Assembly: GCF_001315945.1 (NCBI RefSeq)
Contig: NZ_BBBG01000003.1
Span: 76,468 to 116,467 of the forward strand
Source: Methanogenium cariaci JCM 10550
GTDB lineage: Archaea > Halobacteriota > Methanomicrobia > Methanomicrobiales > Methanomicrobiaceae
Direction: 5' to 3'
Length of the DNA stretch: 40,000 nt
Shown here: positions 35,026-40,000 of the stretch, one piece after another
How the letters are laid out: every line of letters starts with the position of its first letter
Position numbering within the stretch: the first letter of the stretch is position 1
Notes under the pieces: model-generated
Seen by the model: only the letters and a program-made list of their open reading frames with translations
Told to the model about the DNA's origin: nothing
Databases searched by the model: none
Made by a program: the position numbers and the translations under genes

Positions 35026-35042
35026 CCCCGCATTTGTTTTTT
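35026..35042. repeat. Right copy of the target-site duplication (attR-like, retains a tRNA 3'-end-like CCCCGCA)
   Basis: CCCCGCATTTGTTTTTT versus 20110-20126. The exact C count is unreliable. Confidence 0.65.
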
Positions 35043-35071
35043 GGGTAATAGTTATCTTGTAATTTTGCAAC
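35043..35071. repeat. Degenerate second left-TIR copy
   Basis: GGGTAATAGTTATCTTGTAATTTTGCAAC versus GGGTTATAGTTAGTTGTGAAAAACGCCAC. The first 12 nt are 11/12 identical. Similarity beyond that needs one indel. Confidence 0.5.
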
Positions 35072-35110
35072 TTTTAATAGTTCTTGATTCATTGAAATGC
35101 ATTTTTCATA

Positions 35111-35500
35111 TTATAGATGCTGAAAAATCAATATGGTGTTATGCAAAATAATATTGGTGAAATATAACACCATCCCCACAAGACCAACTTGTATAGCTAC
35201 TATCACTAAATTTTGTAAATTATCTATCATCACCATTTTATTTATTAATATTTTTGCTCCCTCTACCAATCCAAAAACCAATGAAAATGCAATTAATTTG
35301 ACAAGAATGTGTAGGTAAACATTTGGAGCTATCATCACCATATATGGATTGCTTTCATGTAATCCATTACCAATATTAAGTGCAATTGTCGTTGTAATTA
35401 TATCCAAAATAAATACTAATACCAAACCAATCCAAATTATATTATTATCAAGGGTTTCTCTAAATTTATGTAAAAACTTATAAAAAATTGTTATTTTCAT
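35111..35500 (-). CDS. DUF5658-like membrane protein
   Basis: 129-aa ORF: IIWIGLVLVFILDIITTTIALNIGNGLHESNPYM (the ExNP motif typical of this archaeal membrane family). Confidence 0.5.
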   Translation of the reverse strand: MKITIFYKFLHKFRETLDNNIIWIGLVLVFILDIITTTIALNIGNGLHESNPYMVMIAPNVYLHILVKLIAFSLVFGLVEGAKILINKMVMIDNLQNLVIVAIQVGLVGMVLYFTNIILHNTILIFQHL

Positions 35501-35601
35501 CGATGTTTATCTCGTTAAAATGTAGGAGTTTCATATTATTATAATAATGTGGCCTAAATTAATGAACCATAATATTACTTGATTCGACATAACTTGTTTA
35601 T

Positions 35602-36715: not shown

Positions 36716-36884
36716 ATTTTCTTCTAATAATTAACAATTTAAGTGAAATGCGATATTGTTCTTCTAAACAAATCACTCTTGTGTTCGATCCTTTATTTTC
36801 TTGAAATATCCAATAAATAATCTTCAAAAGATAGTATTCGATAAGGACATATAATGAAAGAAATAACATTAAGCTTGTATTGAA

Positions 36885-38321
36885 ATGGACTATCATAGAA
36901 TTAAAAATCTCAAAGAAAGTGATCCAACAATACGGTTGTTCAATGCCGATAATAGTCCACTAATCATTAGTTTTATTTTCCAAGCATTTAAGCAGAATAA
37001 CAAAATCACGATATCTAATGATGAGCTCGTTTCCAATCTTACCGACACAATTTATTTAATCCGAAATACTTGCGGAGAGGAATTATATCCTGATTCTGCT
37101 CAAAATTACCTTGACAATTGGGCAAATGAGGCATACTTAAGAAAATATTATCCCGCCGATAATGATGAACCCTGTTTTGAACTTACTCCATCAACTGAGA
37201 AAGCATTAGAATGGATAAAGGAGCTAGAGAATCGGGAATTTGTAGGTACTGAATCTCGGCTAATTAAAATTATTGAGATGCTGAAGGAAATTGCTTATAG
37301 AAATTCAGACAACCCAACAATACGATTAGAAGAATTAGAAAGGAAAAAAAGTGAGATTGAAGAAGAAATCAATAAAATTAATTCAGGGATACTTGAAAAA
37401 TTTAGTGATACACAAATTAAAGAACGATATTTCGATATTTACGATACCTCGAATAAATTACTCTCAGATTTTAAGCAGATTGAATACAATTTTCGCCAAC
37501 TTGATCAAGACGTCAGAAAAAAGCAGATTACCAGTGAAGTACAAAAAGGAGAGCTTTTAAATGATATTTTTTCGAGTCATGACATTCTTTCGGAGTCTGA
37601 TCAAGGGAAAAGTTTTCGAGCTTTTTGGGATTTACTGCTGTCCCAAAACAAACAGGATGAATTGGACGAATTGATCGAATTAATCGTTCATTTGCCCGAA
37701 ATTCAGGATATTAAAAGGGATGACACTCTTGACGGATTGAAAGATCATCTTATTGAAGCAGGATATAGGATCAATAACACGAATCACATACTAGTTGAGC
37801 AATTGCGAAAATACCTTGATGATAGGATTTATTTGGATAATAAACGGATTATTGAGATAATTAGGGACATTAAATCAATTGCAGTTGAAATAAAAAACAA
37901 TCCCCCAAGCAATAAAGAGATTATTACAATTCCTGATCGCCCACAAATTGAGATGATTATGGAACGTCCATTGTGGGATGTATCTATCAGTCAGGATTTG
38001 AGACAAATCGACCTTGAAGAAGGTAACTCGACATTGGTTGATACCCAACAATTGTATTCTCAATTTGATATCAATCAGGAAGAACTTAGGTCGAGAATTG
38101 ATGAATTACTTTCGATCACCTCTCAATTTACGTTGAAAACACTCATTGAAAAATATCCTGTTGAACGAGGACTCGCAGAGATTCTTATCTATGTTGATAT
38201 CGCATTAAAAAATGAGAAAGCATTTGTTAACGAAAATATTTCTGAAACGATGATCGTATGGAACAAAATATCGAATAGATATTTCGAAATTCAACTTCCT
38301 CAAATTATTATTAGTAGGTGA
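36885..38321 (+). CDS. jetA: Wadjet JetA (DUF3375, MksF-like kleisin)
   Basis: Intact 478-aa ORF: IKNLKESDPTIRLFNADNSPLIISFIFQAFKQNNKITISNDELVSNLTDTIY. This is the typical DUF3375 N-terminus, and the gene sits first in a jetABC order. Confidence 0.75.
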   Translation: MDYHRIKNLKESDPTIRLFNADNSPLIISFIFQAFKQNNKITISNDELVSNLTDTIYLIRNTCGEELYPDSAQNYLDNWANEAYLRKYYPADNDEPCFELTPSTEKALEWIKELENREFVGTESRLIKIIEMLKEIAYRNSDNPTIRLEELERKKSEIEEEINKINSGILEKFSDTQIKERYFDIYDTSNKLLSDFKQIEYNFRQLDQDVRKKQITSEVQKGELLNDIFSSHDILSESDQGKSFRAFWDLLLSQNKQDELDELIELIVHLPEIQDIKRDDTLDGLKDHLIEAGYRINNTNHILVEQLRKYLDDRIYLDNKRIIEIIRDIKSIAVEIKNNPPSNKEIITIPDRPQIEMIMERPLWDVSISQDLRQIDLEEGNSTLVDTQQLYSQFDINQEELRSRIDELLSITSQFTLKTLIEKYPVERGLAEILIYVDIALKNEKAFVNENISETMIVWNKISNRYFEIQLPQIIISR

Positions 38322-38328
38322 GAATGGT

Positions 38329-38909
38329 ATGGATAACGAGACTTTACCCTATGCTCTAGCTGTAATAAAATTATTAAAAGGCGTTGTATACAGTGACGAT
38401 AAGACCGTTTGGAATTGTCTCATTCAATACCAGCGGGATATTAAACAACATTTTTCGGGAATAGGAATTGAAGTATTTGTCCAGGAAAGCGAAGGATTTG
38501 CTTACTTAAAACAAAAAGACAGTGATCCAAGTCAGGAAGAAAACCTTCCCCCCATATTATTGAGAGAAGACAACTCAGTTATCCTGTTACTCTACTCTCT
38601 GTCCTGCTATTCGAAAAATTAATTGAATTCGATATGAAAGGTGGAGATTCTACAAGATTAATCATTGATCGTGAGGAGATCAAAGACTCTGTAAGAATAT
38701 TTCTCCCGGAAGGTTCAAACGAGGCTAAATTGACTGACAAAGTTGATAAACATATCAAAAAACTTGTAGACTTTGGTTTTTTAAGAGTACTGAGTACTGA
38801 TTCGAATAAGTTTGAAGTCAGAAGAATTCTGAAAGCAAAAATATCTGCTGATGGACTTCAGGAGATTAAAGCAAAGTTGGGGGGGGAACATGCAAAACTC
38901 CTTAATTGA
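38329..38909 (+). CDS. jetB: Wadjet JetB (DUF4194, MksE-like), frame break at the C6 run 38548-38553
   Basis: PYALAVIKLLKGVVYSDDKTVWNCLIQYQRDIKQHFSGIGIEVFVQESEGFAYLKQ. After the C run: HIIERRQLSYPVTLLLSVLLFEKLIEFDMKGGDSTRLIIDREEI... Confidence 0.72.
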
Positions 38910-40000
38910 TTTTTCAGACGATGATCTACAGAAAGGATTTCGGTTACATCGTTTAGAAGTCTACAATTGGGGGGGAACTTTTAATCAGAAAGTGTGGAAG
39001 GTTGAACCATGTGGTTTCAATTCGTTATTGACTGGTGATATTGGATCGGGAAAATCCACCTTGGTTGATGCAATTGTTACCCTATTGGTTCCTCCGAATA
39101 AGATTATTTACAATAAAGCAGCTGGCGCTGGAAGTAAAGAACGAACCATTGGCTCTTATGTAATGGGAGAATATAAAAATCAGAGGAGTGAGTTCAGTAA
39201 CAATTCCAGTCCGGTTTATTTACGAAATGATAATGAATATTCGGTCCTTCTTGCTCGGTTCTACAATAAAGGATTTGAATCAGGATACACGTTAGCTCAA
39301 GTTTTTTGGATACGAAAAGGAATTGCAAAGAAATTTTTTGTCATCTCAAAACAGGACTTAAGTATCAAAGAGCATTTTAAAATAAATAATGATGAAAGAG
39401 ATGTCTTTTCTCTGAAAAAACGCTTAAAAACTCTCGATCAAACCGAAGTCTATGATTATTTTAAGGATTATAGTTCCAAATTTCGCTCCCATTTTGGAAT
39501 TAAATCTGAGAAAGTAATGGAGTTATTTTATCAGACAGTCTCGATGAAGTCTGTAGGTAAATTAACTGAATTCATGCGAAATCATATGCTGGAAAAATTG
39601 GACGTAAAAGATGAGATTGAGGGAATAAAAAATAACTATGAAAACCTTACAAAATCTCATGAAGCGGTTCAAAAAGCAAAACGACAATTAGAACAATTAA
39701 CTCCTTTAGATGAAGCAATTGACGCATATCAAATAATTGTTGAAAAAAATATAGAATTAAAAAAGTCTATTGATTTTTTACCCGTTTTTTTTTGCAGATA
39801 AAAAAGCCATAATTCTTGAGAAAGAGATTCAATCCCACATTTCAACTAAAGAACGAACTGAGCATGATATTACTAAAATCACTCTTGATTTAGAAACATT
39901 GCGCGACCAAGAGAAAGATGTTATTATTTCAATTAATCAGAATGAGGAAGGACAAAGGATAAATCAGCTGGACAGTGAAATCGCTGCTCTGGAAAAAGTG
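38890..40000 (+). CDS. jetC: Wadjet JetC (SMC/MksB-like ATPase), N-terminal part; frame break at the T run about 39784-39792; continues beyond the window
   Basis: MQNSLIDFSDDDLQKGFRLHRLEVYNWGGTFNQKVWKVEPCGFNSLLTGDIGSGKSTLVDAIVTLLVPPNKIIYNKAAGAGSKERTIGSYVMGEYK (Walker A and the JetC head signature). Coiled-coil-like sequence runs to nt 40000. Confidence 0.78.

What the first reader, a model, noticed from the sequence alone, without database searches (positions are those of the whole stretch)
35026..40000. Second, gutted casposon in tandem at the same att site, with its core replaced by Wadjet
Immediately after the right TSD a TIR-like sequence restarts at 35043 (GGGTAATAGTTA..., 11/12 identical to the left TIR start). 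About 1.4 kb further on, in the same relative position and orientation as in element 1, lies a decayed PolB C-terminal remnant (36478-36715). It translates DIGLLERKHIVA..IHIGKE and carries a stop and a frameshift. Homology stops abruptly at about 36715, and AT-rich jetA starts at 36885. This looks like serial casposon insertion into a regenerated tRNA-proximal target, followed by replacement of the second element's replication and integration core by a defence operon.
Basis: partly seen in the sequence, partly recalled or inferred. Interest (0 to 1): 0.7.

Follow-up and report, generated by a model that had tools for sequence, protein, structure and literature searches.

The report
Casposon relic fused to Wadjet cassette
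Beside an intact self-replicating transposon (casposon) at a tRNA-Leu gene of the methanogen Methanogenium cariaci lies the one-ended wreck of an older casposon. A separately mobile Wadjet anti-plasmid operon now sits where its core genes were, which is a clear but largely expected example of a transposon graveyard turning into an archaeal defence island.

Summary
Exactly one 14-bp target-site copy after the right TIR of the intact casposon C1, a second TIR starts at 35043. A 1.4-kb arm with two ORFs follows, then a frameshifted PolB C-terminal pseudogene (about 36430-36715). This "B-type" TIR is genuine: in relatives it bounds both ends of internally deleted casposons, once with a perfect 14-bp duplication. 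Six related Methanogenium-clade genomes lack C1 and have the B-type TIR directly after the same tRNA-Leu. Five of them show a PolB relic; the sixth contig ends too early to tell. The relic is therefore the older element, and C1 inserted later on the tRNA-proximal side.

No Cas1 relic, right TIR or third target copy exists in the 13 kb downstream. The type I Wadjet operon is a discrete cassette of promoter plus jetABCD. It has the same boundaries in eight or more metagenomic contigs with unrelated flanks: once beside purB, once beside a Cas1 relic. It is younger than the relic (93-97% versus 52-74% identity to a sister lineage). In other lineages the same slot holds Gabija or other genes.

Tandem or decayed casposons at tRNA-Leu are already described, so novelty is modest. 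The frameshifts in the window's jetB and jetC are homopolymer sequencing errors.

The parts
34988..35025 (-). Right TIR of the intact casposon C1 (A-type TIR), given for context. The window's run of seven C (35023-35029) is four C in the polished assembly.
   Evidence: Inverted repeat I1, 37/38 with 20127-20164; homopolymer difference.
35029..35042 (+). Single 14-bp target-site copy CGCATTTGTTTTTT shared between C1 and the relic. It differs at 3 central bases from the tRNA-proximal copy CGCATGACTTTTTT (20113-20126).
   Evidence: It is identical to the resident 14-mer of relative L014. It is the only CGCATNNNNWTTTT match in L001.
35043..35080 (+). Left TIR of the older casposon (B-type): GGGTAATAGTTATCTTGTAATTTTGCAACTTTTAATAG.
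   Evidence: PWM score of 43.5 bits. The same TIR type lies at both ends of deleted casposons in L012 (perfect 14-bp TSD) and L013. It sits directly after tRNA-Leu in L003, L004, L005, L007, L014 and L017.
35111..35500 (-). Left-arm ORF of 129 aa, a predicted multi-pass membrane protein of unknown function.
   Evidence: Intact in the window, L001 and L002. No hit in Pfam, PADLOC, NCBIfam or PHROGs.
35602..36339 (-). Left-arm ORF of 244 aa (the window copy has one extra codon from a G-run error). It belongs to a widespread uncharacterised family.
   Evidence: 1108 cluster representatives at E<=1e-3. Invariant WW...KH motif. AF2 with MSA gave pLDDT 91. No significant PDB match, only weak HEPN-toxin look-alikes.
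36430..36715 (-). PolB C-terminal pseudogene, equivalent to roughly aa 595-676 of C1 PolB plus the HTH-like tail. It has a 12-codon deletion, at least 2 frameshifts and several stops.
   Evidence: It is 78-86% nt identical to relics in L003, L007, L012, L013, L014 and L017.
36716..36831 (.). Spacer of unknown origin between the PolB relic and the Wadjet cassette. It is about 70% identical to L005 and may be further-decayed PolB.
36832..40000 (+). Type I Wadjet cassette. It has a conserved 52-nt promoter/5' region, jetA (36885-38321), jetB (38329-38909) and jetC (38851 onwards, cut by the window end). jetD and the cassette end lie beyond the window (L001 15367-16557).
   Evidence: Pfam; PADLOC JetA1-D1; intact ORFs in L001; cassette boundaries from 8 or more metagenomic loci.

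Best explanation
Window 35029 to about 36715 is the tRNA-distal, one-ended relic of an older family-2 casposon of a second TIR type (B-type). It keeps a target-site copy, the left TIR, a 1.4-kb left cargo arm with two intact ORFs, and the last ~95 codons of PolB as a pseudogene. Everything from the body of PolB through HNH, HTH-h, Cas1, the right arm, the right TIR and the distal target copy is gone.

A discrete, independently mobile type I Wadjet cassette (promoter plus jetABCD, about 6.6 kb, starting near 36832) now sits at the break. After it come a PDC-S06/RloC-like ATPase, an MJ0788/DUF2283 pair and a conserved DUF3800 flank.

Inferred history:
(1) A B-type casposon integrated at the 3' end of tRNA-Leu(UAG) in an ancestor of the Methanogenium clade, or did so repeatedly.
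(2) Its core decayed through lineage-specific deletions.
(3) The space between the PolB relic and the MJ0788/DUF2283-DUF3800 flank became a variable defence slot. In the M. cariaci and L005 lineages this slot holds Wadjet, and the cassette has been exchanged between lineages more recently than the flanks diverged.
(4) The intact A-type casposon C1 then inserted on the tRNA-proximal side, just as new CRISPR spacers go in next to the leader.

Functionally the relic is inert. Wadjet is predicted to be an active SMC-type plasmid-restriction complex; this rests on family knowledge and was not tested. Steps 1, 2 and 4 are shown by comparative sequence. How Wadjet entered (step 3) is inferred.
For: Junction anatomy is exact: TIR-R1, one 14-mer, then TIR-B.

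The B-type TIR is genuine. It flanks both ends of internally deleted casposons in M. organophilum (L012 8471-12084), where the 14-bp TSD TAAACTTGTGTTCG is perfect and PolB aa 516-675 abuts Cas1 aa 262-399. It does the same in L013 (2241-6190, at tRNA-Leu(CAA)).

The PolB relic aligns with C1 PolB and with the relics of relatives.

C1 is absent, and TIR-B follows tRNA-Leu directly, in L003, L004, L005, L007, L014 and L017. PolB deletion end-points differ in every lineage.

L007 keeps a right TIR and a degenerate 14-mer just after its PolB relic. L003 and L014 keep Cas1 relics.

Wadjet cassette homology to eight or more metagenomic loci always starts 40-80 nt upstream of jetA and ends at the jetD stop. 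The flanks are unrelated: purB, a histidine kinase and ThrRS in L020, and a Cas1 C-terminal relic in L027.

Wadjet is 93-97% nt identical (JetA 96.7% aa) between M. cariaci and L005. The host flank is 81% identical, and the relic and spacer 52-74%.

Other lineages hold Gabija (L007) or a DUF4062 protein plus an IS (L014) in the same slot.

Three assemblies agree on the structure.
Against: No right TIR, third target copy or Cas1 relic is present in M. cariaci out to the conserved flank. The original extent of the element cannot be fixed, and 'Wadjet replaced the core' cannot be told apart from 'a deletion fused the relic to a neighbouring island'.

Left-arm cargo is unrelated in every lineage. 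The relics may therefore be independent insertions rather than orthologues, which weakens the dating.

Cas1 relics in L003 and L014 lie on the same strand as the PolB relic, unlike the C1, L012 and L013 layout.

The two 14-mers flanking C1 differ, which the simple serial-insertion model does not predict.

The sequence beyond L001 21437 could not be read.
Confidence: 0.8

Rival explanations
1. Wadjet (with PDC-S06 and the TA pair) was the original right-arm cargo of the B-type casposon, as Avs2 and CARF are in C1. One internal deletion removed the stretch from the PolB body to Cas1, and the right TIR and TSD later eroded beyond recognition.
For: The intact C1 carries a full-length Avs2 and a CARF3 protein between cas1 and its right TIR, so these casposons do carry defence cargo. 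The island has the same 30-36% GC as the C1 arms. Internal-deletion derivatives that keep both arms exist (L012, L013).
Against: No TIR of either type scores above the shuffled-null 95th percentile anywhere in L001 8230-21437, and there is no third 14-mer. The Wadjet cassette has sharp, context-independent boundaries and also sits beside housekeeping genes (L020). It is much younger than the adjoining relic. L007 and L014, which include both flanks, also lack a distal TIR.
Confidence: 0.12
2. Wadjet was part of a separate island lying distal to the complete old casposon. A later deletion running from mid-PolB across the right TIR and TSD fused the two, so nothing was 'replaced'.
For: In L007 the defence genes (Gabija) lie outside the relic's right TIR and 14-mer, after a further degenerate TIR. 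The slot between the relic and DUF3800 varies among lineages.
Against: L014 has a Cas1 relic between the PolB relic and the TA pair, where M. cariaci has Wadjet. L027 has Wadjet abutting a Cas1 relic. The data cannot formally separate this rival from the best explanation.
Confidence: 0.2
3. There is no second casposon. GGGTAATAGTTA is the native tRNA-downstream sequence, and the PolB-like stretch is a chance match or a stand-alone small gene.
For: Relatives lacking C1 all have this sequence right after the tRNA. A profile of the PolB-like segment retrieved only short proteins (72-244 aa) among its top 120 hits.
Against: The same TIR type occurs inverted at both ends of elements that contain PolB and Cas1 fragments, with a perfect TSD, at other loci. 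The short proteins start at different points of PolB and align with full-length C1 PolB far upstream. The window copy is frameshifted. The more distant relative L006 lacks the sequence, though only 480 nt could be read there.
Confidence: 0.03
4. The tandem arrangement is an assembly artefact, a repeat-induced mis-join at the TIR.
For: The window assembly is error-prone at homopolymers. The Logan contig L002 starts inside TIR-R1.
Against: The polished NCBI assembly spans C1, the junction and the island on one 288-kb contig with no mismatches to the window. An analogous A-TIR | 14-mer | B-TIR junction exists in M. organophilum.
Confidence: 0.02

Closest known systems
Tandemly integrated family-2 casposons at tRNA-Leu in Methanosarcina sp. 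2.H.T.1A.x (Krupovic et al. 2016, PMC4779613)
   Same: Two casposons lie head to tail at the 3' end of a tRNA-Leu gene, separated only by one shared 14-bp target copy that begins CGCA. One copy is inactivated, with a broken PolB.
   Different: Here the two elements have different TIR types (A and B). The inactive copy is not merely stop-riddled: it lacks its whole core and its right end. The flanking 14-mers differ, and a defence cassette sits at the break. The host is Methanomicrobiales, not Methanosarcinales.
Solo-TIR casposon remnants of M. mazei (Krupovic et al. 2016, PMC4779613)
   Same: A single casposon TIR next to a CGCA target motif, left behind when a full-length element degraded. 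Degradation occurred repeatedly and independently across lineages.
   Different: This relic also retains a 1.4-kb cargo arm with intact ORFs and a PolB C-terminal pseudogene.
Target-site carry-over and tandem formation by MetMaz-C1 in vivo (Ulbricht et al. 2023, PMC10359463)
   Same: Reintegration occurred at a tRNA-Leu-like site, with the casposon's own previous 14-mer found next to its right TIR instead of the resident one. Tandem structures formed at an occupied site.
   Different: That was shown by nested PCR in M. mazei. Here there is only a static genomic pattern (left 14-mer equals the resident type of L003 and L007; right 14-mer equals that of L014), which is consistent with the same process but does not prove it.
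Type I Wadjet (JetABCD) plasmid-restriction system
   Same: All four genes are in canonical order with full-length matches to the PADLOC JetA1, JetB1, JetC1 and JetD1 models. All are intact in the polished assembly.
   Different: The host is archaeal. The cassette is embedded at the break of a casposon relic. Its activity is untested.
Accretion-type defence islands at site-specific transposon targets (Tn7 attTn7 islands; pipolins, PMC11551731)
   Same: Site-specific elements accumulate at one target. Copies decay, and variable defence cargo is exchanged between lineages.
   Different: The nucleating elements here are Cas1-dependent casposons in an archaeon. The pipolin study reported a lower defence-gene density in its 48 reference casposons.

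Membership tests
Autonomous family-2 casposon | Cas1 casposase gene | tested here: not met
   tblastn of C1 Cas1 against L001 finds only C1's own gene. Nothing is found in 8100-21437 at E<=0.01.
Autonomous family-2 casposon | Full-length protein-primed PolB | tested here: not met
   Only about 95 C-terminal codons remain, with at least 2 frameshifts and several stops.
Autonomous family-2 casposon | Terminal inverted repeats at both ends | tested here: not met
   The left TIR is present (35043). The pattern search and the PWM scan of 13 kb downstream give nothing above the shuffled null.
Autonomous family-2 casposon | 14-bp target-site duplication starting CGCA at a tRNA 3' end | tested here: inconclusive
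   The proximal copy CGCATTTGTTTTTT is present, but there is no distal copy.
Casposon relic / solo-TIR remnant | Sequence matching a TIR used by bona fide casposons, adjacent to the CGCA target motif | tested here: met
   The B-type TIR bounds both ends of elements containing PolB and Cas1 fragments in L012 (perfect TSD) and L013. The window copy scores 43.5 bits.
Casposon relic / solo-TIR remnant | Residual fragments of casposon core genes in the expected orientation | tested here: met
   The PolB C-terminus lies on the minus strand with its C-terminal end towards the left TIR, as in C1.
Tandem casposon array | Adjacent elements separated by exactly one target-site copy | tested here: met
   ...TATAACCC|CGCATTTGTTTTTT|GGGTAATAG after homopolymer correction.
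Tandem casposon array | Identical target-site copies around the newer element | tested here: not met
   CGCATGACTTTTTT versus CGCATTTGTTTTTT, 11 of 14 identical.
Type I Wadjet | jetA (DUF3375), jetB (DUF4194), jetC (SMC-like ATPase) and jetD (DUF3322/JetD_C) in one operon | tested here: met
   Pfam and PADLOC full-length hits: JetA1 540 bits, JetB1 223, JetC1 1298, JetD1 480.
Type I Wadjet | Restriction of small circular DNA | not testable with these tools
   Needs a plasmid-transformation assay.
Defence cargo of a mobilisable (two-TIR) casposon | Cargo lies between two casposon TIRs | tested here: not met
   There is no distal TIR in M. cariaci, L007 or L014. By contrast, Avs2 and CARF in C1 do meet this test.

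The most novel reading that the evidence does not exclude
Casposon arrays at tRNA-Leu in Methanogenium may act as polar, CRISPR-array-like accretion sites that seed archaeal defence islands. New casposons, themselves carrying defence genes such as Avs2, would enter next to the tRNA 'leader'. Older ones would be gutted, and their relics (TIR and PolB 3' end on one side, the TA pair and DUF3800 on the other) would serve as homology arms for swapping compact defence cassettes such as Wadjet between species. The mismatched 14-mers around C1 would then be a natural footprint of a circular casposon intermediate carrying its previous target site.
Probability: 0.3. Interest if true: 0.65.

Novelty: new member of a known kind. 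Interest (0 to 1): 0.42.

Why it matters
The locus extends tandem casposon arrays and relics from Methanosarcinales to Methanomicrobiales. It shows two co-existing TIR types there.

It documents one concrete route by which a site-specific transposon target turns into an archaeal defence island. The intact element carries Avs2 and CARF. A dead one sits beside a Wadjet cassette that moves on its own, and sister lineages hold Gabija in the same slot.

It also offers a natural test case for two open points of casposon biology. One is the polarity of insertion relative to the tRNA 'leader'. The other is whether the element carries its old target site with it.

None of this is a new mechanism. Practically, it warns that the window's apparent pseudogenes in jetB, jetC, avs2 and C1 polB are homopolymer errors.

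Tried and rejected
1. A candidate right end at the GC jump (L001 20070-20083...TAAATAACCC) looked TIR-like by eye. It scored below noise in local alignment and in the PWM scans and has no adjoining 14-mer, so I rejected it. That block is instead a conserved GC-rich segment shared with M. organophilum.

2. I considered extending the PolB relic to about 36820 through 'FIGYFKKIKD'. Alignment with L007 and relaxed tblastn give only E of about 0.25, so this is not accepted.

3. Walking beyond L001 21437 failed.

5. An Rfam scan of the island gave only DUF3800-X RNA, outside the finding.

6. The idea that the PolB-like segment is a genuine small-gene family was rejected, because the hits have variable start points and upstream PolB homology.

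7. A search for casposon proteins or TIRs next to the other Wadjet cassettes found only the L027 Cas1 relic.

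
Full report
SOURCE AND DATA QUALITY

An exact look-up of the window's JetA found the same locus on NCBI GCA_054654835.1 (contig BAAIGF010000004.1, 288 kb; locus L001) and on a Logan contig (L002). The organism is Methanogenium cariaci, a name given by a source for a fragment of a neighbouring gene. Over 13.1 kb the window differs from L001 by 17 indels, nearly all in homopolymer runs (mostly G or C runs of 4-5 bases read as 6-8), and by no substitutions. In L001, jetB (191 aa), jetC (1132 aa), jetD and a 1529-aa ORF are intact. 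The breaks seen in the window are therefore sequencing artefacts. The same holds for the C-terminus of C1 PolB. No assembly difference falls inside the PolB remnant, so its defects are real.

THE OBSERVATION

C1 is bounded by a 38-nt inverted repeat, 37/38 matched (20127-20164 and 34988-35025), next to tRNA-Leu(UAG) at 20029-20115. After homopolymer correction the right junction reads ...CTATAACCC | CGCATTTGTTTTTT | GGGTAATAGTTATCTTG.... A TIR-like sequence thus restarts exactly one 14-bp target copy after C1.

On the minus strand, 36430-36715 encodes a decayed PolB C-terminus. DIGLLERKHIVAYGGIHIGKE matches DVGLLERRHIVADDVAHIGKE of C1 PolB (E=2e-5). The match continues as NSVNEQVLDVKRSQVFVNELEYREEILNM... 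in a second frame and RRWINRGGAFEDEEG in a third. It aligns column for column with C1 PolB and with the remnants found in relatives. jetA (DUF3375) starts at 36885.

IS THE 35043 SEQUENCE A CASPOSON TIR?

Using the host gene upstream of the tRNA as a probe, and then PolB-remnant homologues, I recovered the same tRNA-Leu locus in six other Methanogenium-clade genomes or contigs: L003, L004, L005, L007, L014 and L017. None has C1. In all six the tRNA plus about 10 nt is followed directly by GGGT(A/T)ATAG(T/G)TATCT... L003, L005, L007, L014 and L017 also carry a PolB C-terminal remnant 0.6-2.3 kb further on. L004 ends too early to tell.

Two further loci show instead that it is a transposon end.

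- In M. organophilum (L012), GGGTAATAGTTATCT...TTTTGCAACT occurs in inverted orientation at 8471 and 12084. It is flanked by a perfect 14-bp direct repeat (TAAACTTGTGTTCG). The enclosed segment has PolB aa 516-675 abutting Cas1 aa 262-399.
- In MAG CSMAG_280 (L013), the same TIR type bounds a 3.9-kb element at a different tRNA-Leu(CAA). That element contains PolB aa 467-675 and Cas1 aa 167-397.

I call this the B-type TIR, and that of C1 the A-type. They share the first 12 nt. The more distant relative L006 lacks the sequence, though only 480 nt could be read. So 35043-35080 is the left TIR of a second casposon.

WHICH ELEMENT IS OLDER?

The B-type relic is present without C1 in six lineages whose host flanks are only 75-84% identical to M. 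cariaci. C1 has near-perfect TIRs, and its genes are intact wherever the polished assembly could be checked. The relic is therefore old, and C1 is a recent insertion on the tRNA-proximal side.

PolB deletion end-points differ in every lineage. In C1 PolB numbering, the retained residues are approximately:
- window: aa 595-676
- L003: aa 590-676
- L005: aa 491-534 plus 630-676, further split by an IS21
- L007: aa 561-667
- L014: aa 533-659
- L012: from aa 516
- L013: from aa 467

Decay was therefore independent in each lineage. A profile of these remnants retrieved 331 database proteins, and the top 120 are all PolB C-terminal fragments of 72-244 aa from Methanogenium, Methanococcoides, Methanolobus and Methanosarcina. 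Such relics are very common.

One caveat applies. The cargo between TIR-B and the PolB relic is unrelated in every lineage. The relics could therefore be repeated insertions of related casposons rather than strict orthologues.

WHAT IS MISSING

In the 13 kb downstream of the relic (L001 8230-21437) I found:
- no A-type or B-type TIR: the exact pattern with 1 mismatch gave none, and position-weight matrices from 11 TIR instances gave top scores below the 95th percentile of shuffles;
- no further CGCATNNNNWTTTT 14-mer;
- no Cas1, HNH or HTH-h similarity.

The low-GC island ends at about L001 20035. The conserved right flank (DUF3800) starts at 20418. Relatives retain more of the element:
- L007 has an A-like right TIR and a degenerate 14-mer immediately after its PolB relic, then another degenerate TIR.
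- L003 has a Cas1 C-terminal fragment and an HTH-h gene.
- L014 has a Cas1 relic (aa 200-400) between the PolB relic and the MJ0788/DUF2283 pair, which is the position that Wadjet and PDC-S06 occupy in M. cariaci.

WADJET

PADLOC gives full-length JetA1, JetB1, JetC1 and JetD1 matches. A metagenome scan with JetA returned 11 loci. Nucleotide homology to M. cariaci always begins 40-80 nt upstream of the jetA ATG, at a conserved ...ATTCGATAAGGACATATAAT... leader. It ends at the jetD stop, and the flanks are otherwise unrelated.

In L020 the cassette lies beside purB, a histidine kinase and an archaeal ThrRS, with no casposon trace. In L027 a Cas1 C-terminal pseudogene (aa 280-400, 57% identity) starts about 110 nt after jetD.

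Between M. cariaci and L005 the cassette is 93-97% identical (JetA 96.7% aa). The spacer and relic to its left are 52-74% identical, apart from one short conserved PolB stretch at about 90%. The host flank is 81% identical. The switch occurs about 50 nt upstream of jetA, near window position 36832-36834.

Wadjet is thus a compact, separately mobile module that is younger than the relic it abuts. In the same slot L007 carries Gabija (GajA/GajB) and L014 carries an IS plus a DUF4062 protein.

INTERPRETATION

The best reading is a one-ended relic of an old B-type casposon whose core and right end were lost. A mobile Wadjet cassette sits at the break, inside a variable defence slot bounded distally by MJ0788/DUF2283 and DUF3800. 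The intact casposon C1 was later added next to the tRNA.

'Core replaced by Wadjet' is a fair description of the position. It is supported by the Cas1 relics in L014 and L027. Two alternatives remain: a deletion may have fused the relic to a neighbouring island (as the L007 layout suggests), or Wadjet may have been right-arm cargo. The second is less likely given the cassette's sharp boundaries, its youth and the absence of a distal TIR.

The L005 lineage has the relic-Wadjet junction without C1.

THE 14-MERS

The two 14-mers around C1 differ at three central positions. The left one, CGCATGACTTTTTT, is the resident 14-mer of L003 and L007. The right one, CGCATTTGTTTTTT, is that of L014. With TIRs matched at 37/38, drift is an unlikely cause.

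Ulbricht et al. 2023 (PMC10359463) reported that MetMaz-C1 reintegrated at a tRNA-Leu-like site with its own former target site next to the right TIR. They proposed a circular intermediate carrying one target copy. The pattern here fits that model. A crossover within the shared TTTTTTGGGT would also fit. I cannot test either.

COMPARISON WITH KNOWN SYSTEMS

Krupovic et al. 2016 (PMC4779613) already described several of these features:
- tandem casposons sharing one TSD at tRNA-Leu in Methanosarcina, with one copy inactivated;
- solo-TIR relics;
- 14-bp CGCA... targets;
- an analogy to Tn7 islands.

No paper in the searched library mentions casposons together with Wadjet. The pipolin study found casposons comparatively poor in defence genes. 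The finding is a new member of a known kind, in a new order, with an informative defence-island context.

Noticed in passing
window 28620-32848 and 34110-34859 (L001 1752-6341 and 7234-8031): The intact casposon C1 carries a full-length Avs2 STAND NTPase (1529 aa, PADLOC 1661 bits) and a CARF3/HFX_2341-like protein between cas1 and its right TIR. Defence genes thus lie inside a mobilisable casposon. The window splits avs2 in two only through homopolymer errors.
   Followed up: partly
window 26865-40000 compared with L001: The window assembly has systematic homopolymer indels, mostly G or C runs of 4-5 bases read as 6-8 (17 indels, 0 substitutions). These create false frameshifts in jetB, jetC, avs2 and C1 polB, and inflate the C-run at the C1 right junction.
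   Followed up: yes
window 20113-20126 compared with 35029-35042: The two 14-mers flanking the intact C1 differ at three central bases. The left one equals the resident site of relatives L003 and L007, and the right one equals that of L014. This fits target-site carry-over by a circular casposon intermediate, as proposed for M. mazei.
   Followed up: partly
L012 (M. organophilum CP113361.1), about 7.3-13.3 kb of the locus: An array of at least four TIR-14-mer-TIR junctions, including an A|CGCATTTTCAGTAT|B junction like the window's. It is surrounded by DpnII and type ISP restriction systems and a tyrosine integrase. This is a larger casposon graveyard and defence island.
   Followed up: partly
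L007 1223-1348; L014 (reverse-complement coordinates) 7301-7426; L017 (reverse-complement coordinates) 10004-10207; protein P0296: In several relics the PolB C-terminal fragment runs straight into a Cas1 C-terminal segment (aa ~331-401) in the same reading direction. This suggests either recombination between the similar HTH-like tails of PolB and Cas1 or a different gene order in some B-type casposons.
   Followed up: no
L001 21113-21186 (minus strand) and L001 20056-20193: A DUF3800-X RNA motif (Rfam RF02984, 84 bits) lies just past the DUF3800 gene at the island's distal flank. A GC-rich 140-nt block upstream of DUF3800 is 72% conserved in M. organophilum.
   Followed up: no
L001 16634-18925 (minus strand): A 763-aa AAA_13 ATPase (PADLOC candidate system PDC-S06; sources call homologues 'wobble nucleotide-excising tRNase'). 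Its best full-length relatives, at about 45% identity, include several gammaproteobacterial proteins, which suggests bacterial-to-archaeal transfer.
   Followed up: partly
window 35602-36339 (minus strand): The 244-aa left-arm ORF belongs to an unannotated family with over 1100 cluster representatives and an invariant WW..Y..KH motif. The AF2 model with a 40-sequence alignment is confident (pLDDT 91) but has no significant PDB match. The only recurring weak look-alikes are HEPN toxins.
   Followed up: partly
window 20000-35000 (composition): The C1 core (polB to cas1) is 43-51% GC. Its cargo arms and the downstream island are 30-36% GC, and the host is 50-57%. The arms appear to draw on a separate AT-rich gene pool.
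   Followed up: no
L005 12811-13822 and 14842-16920: In the sister lineage an IS630-like element sits in the left arm, and an IS21 (istA/istB) splits the PolB relic.
   Followed up: no
L027 8675-9040: A metagenomic contig has a related Wadjet cassette followed about 110 nt after jetD by a frameshifted Cas1 C-terminal relic. This is a second, independent Wadjet-casposon-relic adjacency.
   Followed up: partly
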